Origin: Octopus sinensis
Lineage: Eukaryota
NCBI RefSeq assembly: GCF_006345805.1
Contig: NW_021828178.1
Span: 1-9,002, forward strand
Length of the DNA: 9,002 bases
Direction: 5' to 3'
The notes under the pieces were generated by a model that was given only the letters and a program-made list of their open reading frames with translations, ran no database searches and was not told the origin of the DNA. Below, piece by piece: positions 901 to 8,564 of this stretch. The first letter of the stretch is position 1. Every line of letters starts with the position of its first letter. A program made the translations under genes and the position numbers.

Positions 901-1672
901 TCGGATCTTTTCACTTTGACTGGCAGATTTTTTAAATAATTTCTTTGTAACTAAACACTTTTAAACTTCGTATACTGGTAGAATGTGTTACATAAAACAT
1001 CCTTTTCTCTTGGCTTTCTTGAGAAAATTCTGTAGTTTGTAAGCTAGTTGTTGTTTAATTTCTTGCTTTTCGGCAATTTCAACCAATCAATGACGTCTAT
1101 TGAGGTGAATAGTTTACAAATGTTGGGTAATTTTAGCCAGTCGAAAGCCAGAGACATATAGGTGCCTGTTTCTATAGTAACAAGCCACGCGGTCATTTTT
1201 AGCTTATTAAATGGTAGTCCTGAAAGGTGCTAAAAATAACAGCTAAACAAGTCTTACAGCATGCGCCAAAACATTTTTCTTGTATTAGCATAATCGTATG
1301 AATTCTCGTATGTAGATTACAAATTCGCAAAAATTTCCCGAAAATTCCCCAAAATAAACAAGTAAAGCAGAATTCCGCCAATATTTAATTTGCTTACAGT
1401 TAACAACACGTGCAGTCCCGCACAAAATGACAACTTCCAAGTCCTGTTTTCTGATTGGGTAAAAATGACCAAACTTTAAACTTCTAAATTTTTGAAAAAA
1501 ATTTCCGAAAAAAGTTAAACATCCTACCGAGATTCAGCGTGGAAAATTACACCAATACACAAAATTTTTCAACTTTTAATAAACTTTAAAACAGCCAAAG
1601 AGAAAAAATCCAACGGGATCTTTGATAATATGCAGTGCCGTCCAGTTTGGTGGGGGGGGGTTGTAACTTTTA
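901..1672. mobile_element. Unclassified AT-rich interspersed repeat fragment(s), possibly DNA-transposon derived
   Basis: Sharp boundaries (cggatcttttcactttgactggcag at 902; ggggttgtaactttt running into (TA)n at ~1672). Short inverted motifs inside: accaatca ~1082 vs tgattgg ~1452, and ttttctcttggct ~1003 vs agccaaagagaaaa ~1593. No matched terminal inverted repeats or TSD found. Confidence 0.35.
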
Positions 1673-1823
1673 ATATATATATGCGCATATGTATATAGGT
1701 TTATGTATATATATATATATATATAATTATATATATATATAATATATATAATCATATTTATATATATTATATATATATATACATAAACCTATATACATAT
1801 GCGCATATATATATTAAAAGTTA
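1664..1823. repeat. Perfect 56-bp inverted repeat (fold-back) in an (AT)n tract
   Basis: 1664-1719 (taacttttaatatatatatgcgcatatgtatataggtttatgtatatatatatata) is the exact reverse complement of 1768-1823, with a 48-nt AT-rich spacer. Confidence 0.95.
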
Positions 1824-1946: not shown

Positions 1947-2088
1947 TATCTAATTCACTATTGCTTAACCATCTTCTGACATCGTCTCCGATGAAGAGAT
2001 ATAATAAATATCCTAGAAACAGCTGTAAGACCTATTATAAATGTTCTAAAATCTACACAGCCTTGGTTTTTTTTTAATCTCATTACGG

Positions 2089-2090
<2 letters not shown>
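1947..2090 (+). mobile_element. Short Penelope-like (pseudo-LTR-derived) element in (TA)n, carrying a hammerhead motif
   Basis: Flanked by (AT)n on both sides, has a T-rich 3' end, and contains a minimal hammerhead at 1984-2031. Confidence 0.55.
1984..2031 (+). ncRNA. Minimal type I hammerhead ribozyme motif (U4C variant, decayed helix II base)
   Basis: gtct-CCGATGA-aga-gatat-aataa-atatc-cta-GAAA-cagctg-TA-agac. Helix I gtct/agac, helix II gatat/atatc, palindromic helix III ACAGCTGT, GUA cleavage triplet ending at 2027. Confidence 0.65.
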
Positions 2091-2147
<57 letters not shown>

Positions 2148-2153
2148 TATATA
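2091..2153. repeat. (AT)n microsatellite
   Basis: Directly visible. Confidence 0.95.
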
Positions 2154-2340
2154 GGTTAATAAAACACACAACAACAACGCGAGGACGTGGAACAAATATA
2201 TTATTATTGGACGCTCAGGAAAGAAGGAGGGTTTAACGTTTCGAGCGGAGCTCTTCGTCGGAAACATAGGAGAAGGAAAGGTCCAGAGAAGGGAAGACAG
2301 AAGAAAAAAAATCTCCAACGGTACACACGAGGTCACATTT
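2154..2340 (-). mobile_element. Short Penelope-like element in (TA)n, carrying a hammerhead motif
   Basis: Flanked by TA repeats. Shares blocks cgctcagga, acgtttcgagc and gctcttcg with the element at 8360-8480. Hammerhead at 2231-2265. Confidence 0.6.
2231..2265 (-). ncRNA. Minimal type I hammerhead ribozyme motif (U4C variant)
   Basis: Minus strand reads gttt-CCGACGA-a-gagc-tcc-gctc-GAAA-cg-TT-aaac. Helix I gttt/aaac, helix II gagc/gctc, palindromic helix III AACGTT. Predicted cut after GUU, between 2235 and 2234. Confidence 0.75.
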
Positions 2341-2352
2341 TATATAATATAT

Positions 2353-2390
<38 letters not shown>

Positions 2391-2465
2391 AATATGAATA
2401 TATATATATATATATATACATGAGAGAGAGAGGTGGAGAGGGAGAGGGAGGGAGGGAGAGGGGAA
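2341..2465. repeat. (TA)n/(GA)n/(GGGA)n simple repeats
   Basis: Directly visible. Confidence 0.9.
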
Positions 2466-2606
2466 GACTCACATACACTCAGACACACGCACATAAAGGC
2501 TTAGCCATCATTTAAAAGTGCAGCAAGTAGCCGAGGACGTTGAAAGGTTATGTCAATTTTGACAGCAAGATTTACTGCCGAGATTTCAATATAATAATTA
2601 CTGCCG

Positions 2607-2608
<2 letters not shown>

Positions 2609-2661
<53 letters not shown>

Positions 2662-2669
2662 CGTGCGCG
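2609..2669. repeat. (GT)n/(GC) microsatellite
   Basis: Directly visible. Confidence 0.95.
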
Positions 2670-2883
2670 ACGTGTGTAATGTGTGTCTGTCTGTTGTCTG
2701 TGTGAATTACCACCGACCACCCAACCAGCAAGCCTGATGAACTTGAAATACAGTAATAAAGGTTAACGGGTTCGAAAATATATTTTATTATTTTGTGCTA
2801 ATTAAATATCAATAACTTAAGAAAGGCGCTTATCTATTCAGTTGTTTGTTTATATATTGTTGTTGTTTTTTTATGTATTTAAG

Positions 2884-2908
2884 TACAGTCAACCCTCGAT
2901 TTAACGAA
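2884..2908 (+). mobile_element. Orphan pogo/Tigger-like (Tc1-mariner superfamily) TIR
   Basis: TA|CAGTCAACCCTCGATTTAACGAA resembles the TA-CAGT...CCTCG..TAACG termini of pogo-like elements. No partner TIR in the window. Confidence 0.4.
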
Positions 2909-3063
2909 CTAAGAGCAGAGAAAGTTATATCTGGTAACATCGCCAGAACATTTTATTGAAAGTGTTCTGAATTCTTATTTTGTATTGTTCTTAATGTACA
3001 AAAAATGCTTAAAACACCATATATATACATATGTGTGTGTATGTACATATACATATATACATA

Positions 3064-3832
3064 TGTAACGGTTAGGTTTTAATTAGTGTATAGTTACCAA
3101 TTGTAACGAGTAAGATTGATTAGGTGCACAATATTATGAAATGTCGTGGTCAGCAGTTGTAATGACAAAAATTTGTTGTTATAATTGCATACTGTAGGAT
3201 GAGAAAGATGAACAATGCATAAAGTTTTAAGAAAGTGTTACGTTTTAAGAAAGTGTTACCGTTACGTTGAAAAATACCATACCTCGATGGGCAGGTTTTG
3301 ATAAATCCAAAGGCATGTGAAGTAAAGTTTATGTTTGTGTCCTCTTCATTGTTTAGCAGTAATTACAGAGAGAGATAGAATGATGTAAGAGAACAGATTT
3401 AGAGCTAGTGAGAGTTGTAGGGTTGTAGGTGTTGTCTCACAGTTGCTGACAGTAAACTTCATATCTCCCTCTGACCAAGGGTCTAACTGGACAGCCAGAC
3501 TTCGTTCTCATTGAGTCATCACCATGTGACTGGACTCGTTGAGTCGTCACCGACTGATTTTTGCTTGGGGTGTTCTTGCTTTTATAACTATCCAGAAGAA
3601 TAGATATATCATTGAAAACAATAGATTTAGTTGGTGGTCTAGCTTTTGGTGAAGTAGAAGAGGTTAGAAAGGGTCAAGTGGTGAAGATATTATTTCGGCC
3701 TAGCTAAAGGCATCTGGAAAATTAAAAACTGTTGTCAGAGAAAAATCATTGTTTCACCATGGGAAAAGTTCTGTTAATTTAAATTTGGCTATGGTGGATC
3801 GAATCCACTTCATGCTTACAAGATCCACTACA
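3064..3832 (-). mobile_element. Probable solo LTR (769 bp)
   Basis: Begins TGTAACGG and ends CCACTACA (TG...CA, 6/8 terminal inverted match), between TA/CA microsatellite flanks. The minus strand has a TATA+Inr module and ATTAAA near its 3' end (~3078-3083). Internal 18-bp tandem duplication at 3224-3259. No convincing TSD. Confidence 0.55.
3552..3586 (-). promoter_or_regulatory. TATA box plus initiator within the putative LTR
   Basis: Minus strand TATAAAAG (3586-3579) starts 31 nt upstream of the A (3555) of TCAGTC, which matches the TCAKTY initiator at canonical spacing. Confidence 0.45.
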
Positions 3833-3880
3833 TACACATACACAAAAACCGTTAACTTCACTTCAACATTTATATTTAGT

Positions 3881-4260
3881 AAGGCAGCGACGGCGAGCTG
3901 GCAGAGTGGTTAGCACGTCTGCCGTTACGTTCTGAGTTCAAATTTCGCCGAGGTCGACTTTGCCTTTCATCCTTTCGGGGTCGATTAAATAAGTACCAGT
4001 TACGCACAGGGGTCGATACAATCGACTTAATCCGTTTGTCCGTCCTTGTTTATCCTCTCTGTGTTTAGCCCCTCGTGGGTAGTAAAGAAATAGGTATTTC
4101 GTCTGCCGCTACGTTCTGAGTTGAAATTTCGCCGAGGTCGACTTTGCCTTTCATCCTTTCGGGGTCGATAAATTAAGTACTAGTTGTGTACTGTGGTCGA
4201 TGTAATCCACTGTCTCCACCTCACCAAAAAATTTCAGTTCTTGTGCCTAAAGTAGAAAAG
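3881..4260 (+). mobile_element. Dimeric tRNA-derived SINE with diverged target-site duplication
   Basis: A-box-like tggcagagtggttagc (3899-3914) and B-box-like gagttcaaatt (3934-3944). A ~100-bp block from cgtctgccg to ggtcgat, including gcctttcatcctttcggggtcgat, occurs at 3916 and again at 4100 with different 3' tails. Flanks aacatttatatttagt (3865-3880) and aacatttaaatttgat (4261-4276) match 13/16. Confidence 0.85.
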
Positions 4261-4280
4261 AACATTTAAATTTGATTTGT

Positions 4281-4327
4281 ATCAAAATATCTTTTCGTCG
4301 CTTTCAAACCGCGACCTGTTCACCGAG
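4281..4327 (-). ncRNA. Minimal type I hammerhead motif, G3-C8 swapped core (left-arm copy)
   Basis: Minus strand reads tcg-GTGAACA-g-gtcgc-ggtttgaaa-gcgac-GAAA-agatat-TT-tga. Helix I is only 3 bp with one G-U pair. Confidence 0.55.
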
Positions 4328-4328
4328 A

Positions 4329-4373
4329 GTCAGTGAACAGGTCGCGGTTTCAAAGCGACGAAAATATTTTGAC
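4329..4373 (+). ncRNA. Minimal type I hammerhead motif, G3-C8 swapped core (right-arm copy)
   Basis: gtca-GTGAACA-g-gtcgc-ggtttcaaa-gcgac-GAAA-atat-TT-tgac. Helix I gtca/tgac, helix II gtcgc/gcgac, palindromic helix III AAAATATTTT. Predicted cut after 4369. Confidence 0.7.
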
Positions 4374-4460
4374 ACTAATTAAATTTAAACGTTGAAGTGA
4401 ATTTTAAAGTTTTTCTGGCTTTTAAATGGCTTATAATCACCTTCCCCACTGCAATGGTAG

Positions 4461-4539
4461 ATATACATATATATACATATATATATACATATATATATAC
4501 ATATATACATACATACATACATACATACATACATACATA

Positions 4540-4596
<57 letters not shown>

Positions 4597-4716
4597 GTAT
4601 ATACATATACACACACACACACACTCATACATACACACAGACACATTCACTCACACACACACGCGCGCGCGCGCGCACACACACACACACGCCCACACAC
4701 ACACACACACACACAC
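4461..4716. repeat. Compound (TA)n/(TACA)n/(CA)n/(CG)n microsatellite
   Basis: Directly visible; source of several spurious ORFs. Confidence 0.95.
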
Positions 4717-4995
4717 GTTGTGGAGAGCAATTTAAATGTCACCAGAGCTCGAAACCGTGATCCTGCGATCAATTTCGTTTCACAAATCAGTCCAACTGGT
4801 GGTCTGACAGCAACCATAATTAAACAAACTAGCGACAGACAAGTCACGTGATATTAATTAATCCATTCATTTTTGAAGTTGGCTGAAAGTTCTTATGTCC
4901 TTGTCTGACCTATATTCAGGGGTTGTTCACCCGGCAGGATACATCAAGACACAGAACGTCAGCAATATCTGGAGCTCTTTATGTGTATGTACACA

Positions 4996-5077
4996 CGAGG
5001 GGGTACTGAAAAGTTTCTGGCTTTAAGGGTGGCGCGAAAGGTCTGGTTCGAGGCCCAACCTTCCGAGTTCTTTTACA
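4996..5077 (+). mobile_element. Left end (TIR plus subterminal sequence) of a mariner-type non-autonomous element
   Basis: CGAGGGGGTACTGAAAAGTTTCTGGCTTT (4996-5024) has the mariner-like CGAGGG...AAAAGT terminus and matches the reverse complement of 7603-7631 at 22/29. Confidence 0.7.
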
Positions 5078-7463
5078 CCTCGAGCATGAGGGGGAGGTGT
5101 CAAACCCGTGTATCGACAACCTCTCTCGAACCGGCAAGGCCGATCGGTAGCACAACCAAGCCACGGATTTCTGGAAGTTATCCAGATACCTCGGCCCGAA
5201 TGTCCTTCCGAACAAGCTGGTAGCTGTTCCTCATCGAAGCTTAAAGCCTCCCCCAGGACGTCGTCGAACTCATGCTCTACCAACCCTCTATAAAAATCCG
5301 CAGTGTTAGCCCCGCTGCCGGTACTGCTCGCCCGGGAGAACAGAGTGAGTGCCTGTCTGCACTCCTTCAACCATTCTCCCATTGTAGGTCTCCGCTTGAT
5401 CCATACGCCTACGTCCCGTAGAGACGTTAACTGTGGAAAAAGGAACTTGGAATGCGGTGACCACACCTGTTCACCGTCCAGGTAGCACCAGAGATGTCTC
5501 AGCCTCAGCGCATTCTTGCGCATCATCAGCCAAGGCATCCCTAACTCGCCCTTTAACGGTTTCTGGTAGCAGATGAAGCATCTCACAAGTGGTGTCTTCC
5601 CCTTCCACAAAAAGCGGAATAGGATCCGTTCCAGTTTGGTCAGCTACACAAGGCACGACGTTTAAGCGGTAGGTTACCACAGATGCTACAAATACCTGTA
5701 CAACCTCGGCCCTTCCTAGCAAAGATAGCGTCCTCCGAGACCAGGTCTGGGTTATGGCCGTCACCTTGCTCGCAACCTCGCTCCAGTTTTTCTCCATATG
5801 GAAATCTGGTCCGAACCTGACTCCGAGCAATATAACCGGGCCCTCCGTCCAGCGTCCGGCGACGCTGTTGGGAAGCAGCGACTTGCCCCGCCAGGTGCCA
5901 AGTTGCAAGCCGACTGATTTATCCTGGTTAATTTTTGCCCCTGCAACCGATTCGTTTCCTTTGATGGCGTCTTCTACACGAGGTAGCTGCCCTTCATCAG
6001 ACACGATGATGGTGACATTATCCGAATACGTCGTCGCTCCTCTACCATAACATAGATCACTCGGGTCCCCCCCCCCCATAGTCCCCAATCTCCGCAGCAG
6101 TGGCTCAAGAGCCAATACATACAGGAGCGGGGACAGAGGGCAGCCCTGGGAAACTGAACGCTCGATCGCGAAAGGATTCGAGAAGAAACCGTTCACCTGG
6201 GCAACTGATTCGATGATGTTCCTATACATGGCATCGATCCAGCCACGGAAAGTCCAGCCCAGTTCGACCACCCGGAAGACCGCCTCCAGTCTATGGTGTA
6301 GCGAATGAGATGAATTTTATTGTGTATCGTCCTTTCTAGGATGTCATATGTCTGCGACTCTCCCACCAGGTCGCCCACAACAAGCCTCACTCCCTTGGCT
6401 AACACCTTGGCCAAAATCTTTAACTCTGTGTTTAGCAGAGTTATGGGCCGGAAATTATTAATGTTATCCCCATTGTGCGGGTCCTTCCTGATCTGTGTCA
6501 CTACTCCCCGGCTCACAGATCTGGGACTTCTCCCATTCTATTGCCAGTTCGCGTATACACCGGCCAGTATGCTCCCCAACAAGTCTGACATACTTTTATA
6601 AAAATCGTACGTTAGACCATCCAATCCCGGTGACTTATCCCCGGGGTACTCGGAAAGTACCTCTGTAACCTCTGCAGCTCAGCGTCACGTGCCGAGCGAC
6701 GCGGGCCACCGGCCAAGAAATCCCAAAGGGCATCCCTATGGTCCAGCGCCCCGCCCTTCTCGAACAACGCAGCGAAGTGCTCGTGAAAGGCCTTACACTT
6801 CTCTTCCTGTCCTTGTATCTCCTGTCCATGTTCATTTACCACAGACGTTATCGTGGCATCTATGCCAAGTTGGGTTTCTACCGAGCGAGCCCACCCGGCA
6901 ACCTTGATGCCCTCGCGACCCAGTGCACGTTCTTTTGCCCGAACCCTGCATCCTTCGTGTTTGGCATTGAAGTGTTGGTCCAAGGCCAATCTTGCCGCCA
7001 AAACTTGGGGCGCAGAGCCCATTCTCAGCGCCTCTTCTAACGCCTTAACTAGATTCCCTTCTACTCTAGGCTGTTCTAGACTTAATTGTTTGCTAAATCT
7101 AATAGACTAAAGTCGAATGGCTCTTCTGAGGGCACCCTACCACCAGTTATTTAACACAGTACCGGTTAGTGCCCTCATTACTAACTCCTTAGTAATGAGC
7201 CTAAACGAAGTTGTGATGGCGATCGCGAAGAAACAAGTCTGGACAGGAGACAGAGAACAATACGTCTTCCTTGTCTGACTAGGAGATATGACTTTCTCAT
7301 AACCATTCAAGAGAGTAGAGAAGGCCTGCAATTTGTCCAACATGGTCTCTGTAGCAACCATAATATCCATTCTATGTGATCTGAGGTCGTCGAGAAAACA
7401 AGCAAGCTTCCACTTCGAATTCAGGCCACGCACATTTAAACAACCTACACTAAGTGTAGCCAT
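5078..7463 (-). pseudogene. Degenerate ORF2 (APE endonuclease-reverse transcriptase) of a Tx1/L1-clade LINE
   Basis: Collinear motifs across frameshifted ORFs. Endonuclease start: GCLNVRGL..DIMVATET. RT: NFRPITLLNTELKILAKVLA, QVNGFFSNPF..QGCPLSPLLYVLALEP, YSDN in place of YADD (6017-6028), GAKINQDKS. Thumb and downstream: WSRRTLSLLGRA, WKGK, GELGMP, ending at CSRC (start of a Zn motif). Multiple stops and frameshifts. The D..KAFD.V motif is missing near 6289 and most of the endonuclease is missing near 7196-7274. Confidence 0.92.
7196..7274 (+). repeat. 79-bp foreign insert in the LINE, a direct-repeat copy of 8075-8153
   Basis: Ungapped manual alignment with 8075-8153 gives 71/79 identity. 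Confidence 0.92.
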
Positions 7464-7597
7464 GTCAATAAATAAATGAAAAAGGAAAGTTTGGCTTCTT
7501 ACTCTCCTACTACCGACTGACTTCTACAACGACTGACTGTCTGACTTTATAGTGGCTTTGACACGTGCGAAGCGGCGTACCGTTTCACTACAACATT

Positions 7598-7631
7598 TAC
7601 CCATAGCTAGGAACTTTTTAGCACTCCCTAG
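7598..7631 (+). mobile_element. Right TIR of the mariner-type element
   Basis: atagctaggaactttttagcactccctag (7603-7631) is the inverted counterpart of 4996-5024. Flanks are CA and TG rather than intact TA. Confidence 0.7.
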
Positions 7632-7789
7632 TGTGTGTATGAGTGTGTGTGTGTGTGTGTGTGTAAAACTTACTTGGAAAAGGATGCGTAGCGTTCAATC
7701 ATATGATAATATAAATAATATATATATATGCATATGTACATACATGTGTGTACATACTTACATGTATACGTATATACATATGCATATAT
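7632..7789. repeat. (GT)n and degenerate (TA)/(TACA) microsatellites
   Basis: Directly visible, with a short unique spacer at ~7665-7700. Confidence 0.85.
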
Positions 7790-8265
7790 GGGCACAGAAC
7801 GTCACAAAACGTAAACAACAAAAAATACGAAGTACGAGGACATGGGATATGAACTTTTTATGGGAGCAACAAAAGAAATAAACGGAAAAAAAGACAAACG
7901 ACCCTTCATCAGTTGTCGGCTGTTTTTCTAATCCGTATTTTAAGCATTTCACGACAAGATACGCCTTCGATAAAACAGTTGCTCCCGCAAAGCACATTAA
8001 ATAAAATTTGGGTTTTTGTGGAGGGTCAAAATTGGTGACAAAACAGGACAGTGAAAACAAACAGAAAGGGCTGCTGAGCCTAAACGAGGTTGTGATGGCG
8101 AACGCGAAGAAACAAGCTTAGACAGGAGACAGACAAGAATAGGTCTTCCTTGTTCAGCTGCAACAAGAAGAAAGAAAGAAACACAAGTTAGGAGTAGAAA
8201 GAAAATGGTCGATGGTCACGTGGGAGCCACGTTACAAAAAGGAGAAGAGTGAAGGAGAGAGAGTG
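7790..8265 (-). mobile_element. Interspersed repeat lying in (TA)n, possibly Penelope-related
   Basis: TA-repeat flanks on both sides and a T-rich minus-strand 3' end like the other TA-embedded elements. Part of it is duplicated at 7196-7274. Contains ctgatgaaggg on the minus strand but no complete hammerhead. Confidence 0.45.
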
Positions 8266-8284
8266 ATATATATATATAATATAT

Positions 8285-8359
<75 letters not shown>
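8266..8359. repeat. (AT)n microsatellite
   Basis: Directly visible. Confidence 0.95.
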
Positions 8360-8477
8360 AAGGGAAATTTTACGAAAATAAACAAAAGACGAAGGCAGCT
8401 GGAGTACAAACAAACAAATGTATTAGATAGCGCTCAGGAATAGAAAAAGTCTTTTACGTTTCGAGCCTACGCTCTTC

Positions 8478-8480
<3 letters not shown>
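8360..8480 (-). mobile_element. Short Penelope-like element in (TA)n with a 5'-truncated hammerhead motif (8449-8480)
   Basis: Minus strand reads (at)n-GTCGA-a-gagc-gtag-gctc-GAAA-cg-TA-aaagac. It has the same helix II and ACGT palindrome as 2231-2265, but the helix I 5' strand and core start are replaced by (AT)n. Confidence 0.6.
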
Positions 8481-8523
<43 letters not shown>

Positions 8524-8549
8524 ATATATATCTATATATTATATATATA
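8481..8549. repeat. (AT)n microsatellite
   Basis: Directly visible. Confidence 0.95.
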
Positions 8550-8564
8550 TGACTGTTGAATAGG

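What the first reader, a model, noticed from the sequence alone, without database searches (positions are those of the whole stretch)
1947..8480. Five minimal hammerhead motifs from at least three element families within 6.5 kb, all associated with (TA)n tracts
Seen: motifs at 1984-2031(+), 2231-2265(-), 4281-4327(-), 4329-4373(+) and truncated 8449-8480(-). All have type I order, a very short helix I, an extra purine after A9 and a nearly absent helix III that is palindromic in four of the five (ACAGCTGT, AACGTT, AAAATATTTT, ACGT). In four, the predicted cut lies about 60-95 nt upstream of an element end running into TA repeats. Established: minimal hammerheads with palindromic helix III that cleave as dimers mark the pseudo-LTRs of Penelope-like elements and related non-autonomous retrozymes. 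Inference: this genome has several high-copy, microsatellite-targeting, ribozyme-bearing non-autonomous retroelement families that standard masking would probably label unknown.
Basis: partly seen in the sequence, partly recalled or inferred. Interest (0 to 1): 0.7.

Follow-up and report, generated by a model that had tools for sequence, protein, structure and literature searches.

The report
Penelope end-pieces with variant hammerheads
The five motifs are real small hammerhead RNA folds carried in the end-pieces of four very abundant Penelope-type jumping genes, a known association; none has the textbook catalytic core, each family keeps its own altered core, and the copies were likely made from RNA that had not been cut.

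Summary
All five motifs are present. The family-majority cores are U4C (A, B), swapped G3-C8 (C) and A6U (D). Each family continues, in longer copies elsewhere in the genome, into Penelope-like RT and/or GIY-YIG coding sequence: B is Hydra-type, C and D have the Neptune/Nematis linker, and A is related to D. So these are pseudo-LTR stubs of protein-coding elements; direct tandems, the retrozyme hallmark, are rare (2 of 120 loci). A 600-kb sample gives about 90,000 copies genome-wide. In divergent D copies the core and stems are better kept than the flanks (0.95 vs 0.83-0.86) while N7 and H17 vary, pointing to selection on the altered fold. Copy 5' ends cluster upstream of the ribozyme, near TCA motifs, and almost never at the cut (2 of 94 rows). 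Cleavage and RNA ends are untested. The scan noted the G3-C8 and A6U cores before on other DNA.

The parts
1947..2090 (+). Family B stub: 5'-truncated pseudo-LTR of a Hydra-type Penelope-like element, between TA tracts
1984..2031 (+). Minimal type I hammerhead, C4 core, helix III palindrome ACAGCTGT, predicted cut after 2027 (GUA); this copy has a G>A change in helix II and an extra A before GAAA
2091..2153 (.). (TA)n tract shared by the 3' ends of the B and A stubs
2155..2340 (-). Family A stub: pseudo-LTR whose 5' end lies in the family's -84..-73 cluster
2231..2265 (-). Minimal type I hammerhead, C4 core, palindrome ACGT, predicted cut 2235|2234 (GUU)
4261..4326 (-). Family C inverted arm with G3-C8 core; helix III broken by a 2-nt insertion; its 3' part stops at a SINE-like end
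4329..4455 (+). Family C forward arm ending at the first of the family's two 3' end sites, then TA-rich repeats
4329..4373 (+). Minimal type I hammerhead, swapped G3-C8 core, palindrome AATATT, predicted cut after 4369 (UUU)
8360..8480 (-). Family D stub between TA tracts 8266-8359 and 8481-8550; truncated inside the core
8450..8480 (-). Hammerhead remnant lacking C3, U4 and the 5' strand of helix I; family core has U6; predicted cut 8455|8454 (GUA)

Best explanation
The five motifs are minimal hammerhead folds in short pseudo-LTR stubs of four Penelope-like element families whose longer copies encode RT and/or GIY-YIG endonuclease, and the stubs likely arise when the element's enzyme nicks TA-rich DNA and copies an uncut RNA from an internal start just behind the hammerhead back to a preferred upstream stop. 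Shown: family membership, link to coding sequence, TA-rich 3' junctions, head-to-head arms, clustered ends, family-majority core changes. Inferred: endonuclease targeting and internal priming (from the Anolis element), possibly helped by an element-encoded TATA at the 3' end pairing with the target; the upstream stop being the transcription start in the first pseudo-LTR (about even odds); the altered cores being held by selection as a slow, dimer- or protein-assisted ribozyme or as a fold. The window's own copies are likely inert: B has a helix II mismatch, D lacks half its core, the C arms are predicted to lock into one hairpin.
For: Coding links: A-ORF-A tandem 3.17 kb apart with DKG motif and RT similarity to an intact RT+GIY-YIG ORF, E 2e-15 (one locus); B collinear with RT motif, CxCx5C linker and GIY-YIG in L273-L276; D collinear with RT, Cx4CxxC linker and GIY-YIG in L435-L438; C joined to a GIY-YIG C-terminus in L431 and, inverted, in L377. 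Two 3' end clusters about 57 nt apart in C, the PLE tail. Head-to-head arms in 10 of 30 C and 5 of 30 B loci. (TA)3+ in the 30 nt after the 3' end: A 9 of 15, D 14 of 16, C 2 of 5, B 0 of 2 copies not used as search anchors, against 9.3% background. Cores: C4 57 of 78 (A), 54 of 61 (B); G3-C8 63 of 66 (C); U6 90 of 92 (D). Divergent D copies (n=38): core 0.953, helices 0.955, flanks 0.857 and 0.826; N7 U15/G11/A8/C4; H17 A22/U11/G3/gap 2. 5' ends within 3 nt of the cut: 2 of 94 non-anchor rows. 5' clusters: A 16 of 25 and D 11 of 39 in 12 nt, p<5e-5 and 3.5e-4 against uniform. The C hairpin folds at -73 kcal/mol.
Against: No cleavage, transcript end or strand was observed; only assembled contigs of guessed-RNA runs exist. 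In A, B and C the motif is barely better kept than its flank (0.967/0.946, 0.953/0.936, 0.966/0.959) and there is almost no within-family covariation. B shows no sharp 5' cluster. No cap-like extra G is apparent at A or D junctions, and exact ends follow AT microhomology (read by eye). TCA is common (three within 130 nt in A) and was picked after the fact. No intact ORF was found for A-D; A's endonuclease and C's RT were not seen; the A and C links rest on one and two loci. A4/A6/G3 changes and U17 triplets are expected to be slow (PMC3088659 passages; U17 ranking recalled).
Confidence: 0.8

Rival explanations
1. The short forms are self-propagating non-autonomous elements: a stub holds promoter, hammerhead and priming site, is transcribed on its own and is moved in trans by the PLE enzyme.
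For: Sharp 5' and 3' boundaries in A, C, D and a large excess of short over long copies (5 of 6 A and 2 of 3 C copies in the random sample start in the cluster). PLE termini suffice for mobilisation in trans (PMC3846280 passages).
Against: Short and long copies are the same sequence families, and B has a graded range of 5' ends. Both A sequence variants occur in long copies. Compatible in part with the best explanation.
Confidence: 0.3
2. They are non-LTR retrozymes that spread through ribozyme-cut, circularised RNA.
For: Type I hammerheads, 150-250 nt size, origin from pseudo-LTRs as argued in bioRxiv 10.64898/2026.07.22.740005. Another family in this genome does form 535-nt tandems (L316).
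Against: Direct tandems in 2 of 120 loci; ends do not coincide with the cut; cores are minimal and altered rather than canonical.
Confidence: 0.06
3. The hammerheads are dead relics: the core changes are inactivating mutations fixed by chance in source elements that no longer need the motif.
For: Cleavage is dispensable for insertion in vitro (PMC11167929); weak conservation contrast in A, B, C; A6 changes cut activity strongly (PMC3088659).
Against: G3-C8 is a two-position compensatory change; D keeps U6 in 37 of 38 divergent copies while N7 and H17 vary and flanks drift; a further family in the genome carries U3-A8 with intact ORFs.
Confidence: 0.15
4. The 5' clusters mark a reverse-transcription barrier, a splice acceptor or favoured microhomology joins rather than a transcription start.
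For: In C the cluster edge is also a branch-point/polypyrimidine/CAG acceptor-like site; low-complexity UTRs lie upstream in A, C, D; junctions show AT microhomology.
Against: Upstream edges fall 0-4 nt from a TCA in all three families; at most one possible spliced-type junction among the loci searched.
Confidence: 0.4

Closest known systems
Minimal type I hammerheads (min-HHR) in pseudo-LTRs of metazoan Penelope-like elements (Cervera and de la Pena 2014, PMC4209133; parts 1-2 of 4 read)
   Same: Short helix I, extra nucleotide after A9, palindromic helix III, many families per genome, mostly single truncated copies, opposite-strand pairs close together, U3-A8 core variant.
   Different: The parts read describe U3-A8 as the core variant; here family-majority U4C, G3-C8 and A6U cores occur. 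Lunse et al. 2017 on PLE hammerhead variants could not be read (title only) and may cover them.
Hydra clade PLEs (Craig et al. 2021, PMC8557442; section 11 and passages read)
   Same: Family B: CxCx5C linker, no CCHH, CxxC and CxH around the conserved E and N, C-terminal GIY-YIG, (TA)n insertions.
   Different: C4 core; long low-complexity 3' region; N-terminal RWK and DKT motifs not recovered.
Neptune/Nematis clade PLEs
   Same: Families C and D: Cx4CxxC linker before GIY-YIG; D also CCHH-type residues; A has DKG and 66.5% DNA identity to D's RT.
   Different: Clade not resolved by a tree; altered cores.
Poseidon element PAc of Anolis (Frangieh et al. 2024, PMC11167929; parts 1-2 of 4 read)
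   Same: Two 3' end sites, AT-rich targets, uncut RNA as template; C3G/G8C partly rescues cleavage, which is protein-assisted.
   Different: There G3-C8 is a laboratory mutant; here it is the family majority. PAc primes without homology; in family A the end site itself is TA-rich (one tandem locus).
Animal non-LTR retrozymes (PMC7229834 passages; bioRxiv 10.64898/2026.07.22.740005 part 1 of 5 and passages)
   Same: Short type I hammerhead repeats related to pseudo-LTRs.
   Different: Retrozymes are tandem arrays; these are single or head-to-head stubs continuous with coding elements.

Membership tests
PLE minimal hammerhead | Type I order with helices I and II and palindromic helix III | tested here: met
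PLE minimal hammerhead | Extra nucleotide after A9 and G10.1-C11.1 pair | tested here: met
   A, C, D met; B has G-U in 47 of 61, G-C in 4
PLE minimal hammerhead | Canonical CUGANGA core | tested here: not met
   family majorities C4, C4, G3-C8, U6; hence filed as variant
PLE minimal hammerhead | Self-cleavage as dimer or with protein help | not testable with these tools
   no assay; cofolding gives the helix III dimer duplex only for B
EN+ Penelope-like element | RT and C-terminal GIY-YIG upstream of the hammerhead-bearing end | tested here: met
   B and D both domains; A RT only; C endonuclease only
EN+ Penelope-like element | Pseudo-LTR tandem, inverted 5' arm, optional 3' tail | tested here: met
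   tandem L278 (A); inverted arms B, C; two 3' end sites in C
Hydra clade (family B) | CxCx5C linker, no CCHH, CxxC and CxH near E and N | tested here: met
Hydra clade (family B) | RWK and DKT motifs; phylogenetic placement | tested here: inconclusive
   N-terminal part absent from the four loci fetched; no tree built
Neptune or Nematis clade (A, C, D) | Cx2-5CxxC linker | tested here: met
   D, C; A only by relatedness to D
Neptune or Nematis clade (A, C, D) | RT phylogeny separating the two clades | not tested
   no named reference proteins were fetched
Non-LTR retrozyme | Head-to-tail tandem units each with a hammerhead | tested here: not met
   2 of 120 loci with a direct neighbour within 600 nt
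Non-LTR retrozyme | No link to coding sequence | tested here: not met
Non-LTR retrozyme | Circular RNA | not testable with these tools
   only contigs available

The most novel reading that the evidence does not exclude
Because Penelope reverse transcription starts internally, priming in the first pseudo-LTR of the mRNA copies only the 200 or so bases from the transcription start through the uncut hammerhead, which would explain the tens of thousands of solo minimal hammerheads in animal genomes; and these elements hold cores known as crippling or laboratory-only (A6U, G3-C8, U4C) under selection, so the motif works as a slowed, protein-gated ribozyme or as a binding fold.
Probability: 0.35. 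Interest if true: 0.62.

Novelty: new variant of a known kind. Interest (0 to 1): 0.38.

Why it matters
What hammerheads do for Penelope elements is an open question (PMC8557442, PMC11167929). One genome with sister families carrying canonical, U4C and A6U cores, plus G3-C8 and U3-A8 families, is a ready natural panel for asking whether cutting, slow cutting or only the fold is selected. The clustered 5' ends give a simple, testable account of why solo minimal hammerheads are so numerous. The general association with Penelope elements and (TA)n is already in print.

Tried and rejected
Rfam scan: no hammerhead model matched. Regex search for PLE motifs in the first 140 loci found no link; links appeared only after walking upstream. 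The 30 GIY-YIG loci and 12 longer stretches from the Pfam search belonged to other families; A-D hits in them were incidental. The RT 1.2 kb downstream of a C copy in L399 is a separate insertion after a TA tract and was rejected as a link. The L1/Tx1-like RT inside the window is unrelated. RNA: no RNA holder listed on record; contigs of four guessed-RNA runs hold family C sequence but cannot show ends, strand, splicing or level. Cap-derived G at 5' junctions: looked for by eye, not apparent. Spliced-form copies of C: one doubtful hit. TA-tract density does not explain the local cluster: 29 tracts in the window, mean 19.6 per 10 kb, 16 of 60 samples as high; rho 0.16, p 0.24. Within-family covariation: essentially none; no R-scape-type test run. 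One search used a mis-oriented query; it returned head-to-head C junctions, so that set is biased and was left out of end statistics. Literature: searches showed no listing of natural G3-C8 or A6U PLE cores; Lunse et al. 2017 was not held and the supplements of PMC4209133 and PMC3088659 were not seen, so absence from print is not established.
Full report
Setting. The window is the whole of contig C4649 of a 2.72-Gb genome. The repeats look like octopus repeats (recalled; earlier scan notes say the same; not tested). I name the families A (2155-2340, minus), B (1947-2090, plus), C (4329-4455 plus, with an inverted arm 4261-4326) and D (8360-8480, minus). Positions such as -84 count from core position 3.

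Observation. A relaxed descriptor finds 3 of 5 in the window against a mean of 0.11 in 200 shuffles; a related descriptor finds 18 hits in 599,700 evenly sampled bases and 0 in each of five block shuffles. Rfam lists no hammerhead. None of the five has a canonical core, motifs 3 and 4 are one inverted insertion, and the inverted arm does not touch a TA tract.

Abundance. Each family filled the 40 scored places of a genome search, from 1540, 2678, 1665 and 170 candidates (not copy numbers). In 60 evenly spaced 10-kb stretches 20 copies covered the hammerhead: A 6, B 1, C 3, D 10 (D including 74-87% relatives), about 90,000 genome-wide, Poisson interval 55,000-140,000. No sampled stretch held more than 2. 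Four insertions in 9 kb has Poisson probability 2.7e-4, so the window is a dense patch, of a kind expected some tens of times among about 300,000 such windows; TA-tract density did not explain it.

What they are part of. Walking upstream linked every family to PLE coding sequence. B: L273-L276 are collinear over 1.4-2.1 kb and carry an RT motif, a CxCx5C linker and a GIY-YIG with CxxC and CxH, the features given for the Hydra clade, which inserts into (TA)n (PMC8557442 section 11). A: in L278 two A ends 3.17 kb apart enclose a broken ORF with the DKG motif and RT similarity to an intact 781-aa RT+GIY-YIG ORF of this genome. D: L435-L438 are collinear over 2 kb with RT motifs, Cx4CxxC linker and GIY-YIG; A and D are related in their ends and RT (66.5%). 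C: a 1.4-kb low-complexity region joins the stub to a GIY-YIG C-terminus in L431, and the same endonuclease with its linker lies inverted beside a C end in L377. No intact ORF of A-D was found; the A and C links rest on few loci. In the first 30 loci per family, direct neighbours occurred in 2 of 120 and head-to-head arms in 10 of 30 (C) and 5 of 30 (B); inverted 5' arms and tails are standard PLE anatomy (PMC8557442, PMC3846280 passages). C has two 3' end clusters, +123..+132 and +180..+190. 3' flanks hold (TA)3+ far above the 9.3% background in A and D, less clearly in C (2 of 5; 15 of 37 anchors) and B (0 of 2; 20 of 32 anchors). In L278 the A end site is itself TTTATATA before the sequence continues to the ORF, which suggests primer pairing with a TA target (inference, one locus).

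The cores. Family columns: A C4 in 57 of 78, U4 in 21 while the CpG partner changes in only 2, so both states probably existed in source elements; B C4 in 54 of 61; C G3-C8 in 63 of 66; D U6 in 90 of 92. In A, B and C the motif is hardly better kept than its flank and compensatory changes are nearly absent, as expected for copies decaying from few sources; this is no evidence of selection. D is informative: among 38 copies under 84% identity the core and helices stay at 0.95, flanks at 0.83-0.86, U6 in 37 of 38, while N7 takes all four letters and H17 is A or U in 33 of 38. Those are the two free positions of a hammerhead (established knowledge), so the altered motif was likely under selection in D's source lineages; the copies are not independent and no tree-aware test was run. 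Between A and D the outer helix I pair is G-C versus C-G. A third relative at 72-76% has a canonical core, and a family with intact ORFs has U3-A8. In print: U3-A8 in Schistosoma PLEs (PMC4209133); U4C in a viroid and A6C in a phage, both weak (PMC3088659 passages); C3G/G8C as a partial laboratory rescue in an Anolis PLE whose cleavage needs protein and is dispensable for insertion (PMC11167929). My searches listed no natural G3-C8 or A6U PLE core, but the most relevant paper (Lunse et al. 2017) was not held.

Copy ends. If cut RNA were the template, 5' ends should pile at the cut. Among 94 rows from copies not used as anchors (A 40, of which 11 are D cross-matches; B 5; C 9; D 40), 2 start within 3 nt of the cut, one of them an internal deletion. 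Instead ends cluster upstream: A 16 of 25 in 12 nt (-84..-73; cross-matches and rows outside -150..+70 dropped), D 11 of 39 (about -80..-72 on reference L429, with a second group near -35), C 30 of 34 ends upstream of helix I (about -24..-14; anchors and inverted arms included, and the reference reached only -45, so the uniform null used overstates significance). The upstream edges lie 0-4 nt from a TCA (A -84, C -23, D -83). Penelope transcripts start inside the pseudo-LTR (PMC2377424 passages) and reverse transcription starts internally just past it (PMC11167929), so priming in the first pseudo-LTR would give exactly such stubs. Against: B has no sharp cluster, no cap-like G is apparent, ends follow AT microhomology, TCA is common, and in C the site doubles as a splice-acceptor-like signal. 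I put the start-site step at about even odds.

Verdict. Real motifs, known kind: pseudo-LTR stubs of at least two PLE clades, not retrozymes by the tandem criterion. The variant cores and the end clustering are the parts worth a test. The scan recorded the G3-C8 and A6U families before on other DNA; those notes are not independent support. One of them mentions an indirect hint of cutting in a G3-C8 family; my end count found none, with only 9 unbiased C rows.

Noticed in passing
window 5023-7523 (-): Broken L1/Tx1-like retroelement (RVT_1). Its endonuclease region appears shortened and holds a 79-nt piece (7196-7274) 90% identical to 8075-8153 of the neighbouring element, like filler copied from nearby DNA at a repaired break.
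   Followed up: partly
window 7785-8262 (-): Abundant family E (4225 candidates), ending in TA-rich repeats, with GCTCGAAA upstream of CTGATGA (reverse of type I order); no standard type I hammerhead found in 20 loci and no ORF link.
   Followed up: partly
window 2731-2790 (+): CTGATGA ... GAAA with a possible G-U-rich helix II but no helix I partner; possibly a further decayed motif.
   Followed up: no
window 3885-4260 (+): SINE-like repeat with a 112-nt internal duplication; its end abuts and seems to have truncated the inverted C arm.
   Followed up: no
window 1664-1823: Perfect 56-nt inverted repeat with a 48-nt spacer inside a TA tract.
   Followed up: no
L171-L175, L147-L170: PLE family with many intact 781-aa RT+GIY-YIG ORFs; related copies carry a U3-A8 core hammerhead downstream of the ORF.
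   Followed up: partly
L316 2848-5220; L274 1939-2704: Canonical-core hammerheads in 535-nt (four direct, two inverted) and 435-nt tandems: retrozyme-like arrays of other families.
   Followed up: no
L399, L389 (long family C copies): Splice-donor-like, branch-point-like and acceptor-like signals ending 21 nt before the core, recalling the intron beside helix I of Drosophila virilis Penelope; splicing not shown.
   Followed up: partly
L028, L117, L209 (incidental copies): A relative of families A and D (72-76% identity) with the canonical core, a natural control for the U4C and A6U forms.
   Followed up: no
family C, e.g. L080: The first 12 bases after the 5' cluster are nearly complementary to the sequence at the first 3' end site, so the stub RNA could close into a long stem around the hammerhead (read by eye).
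   Followed up: no
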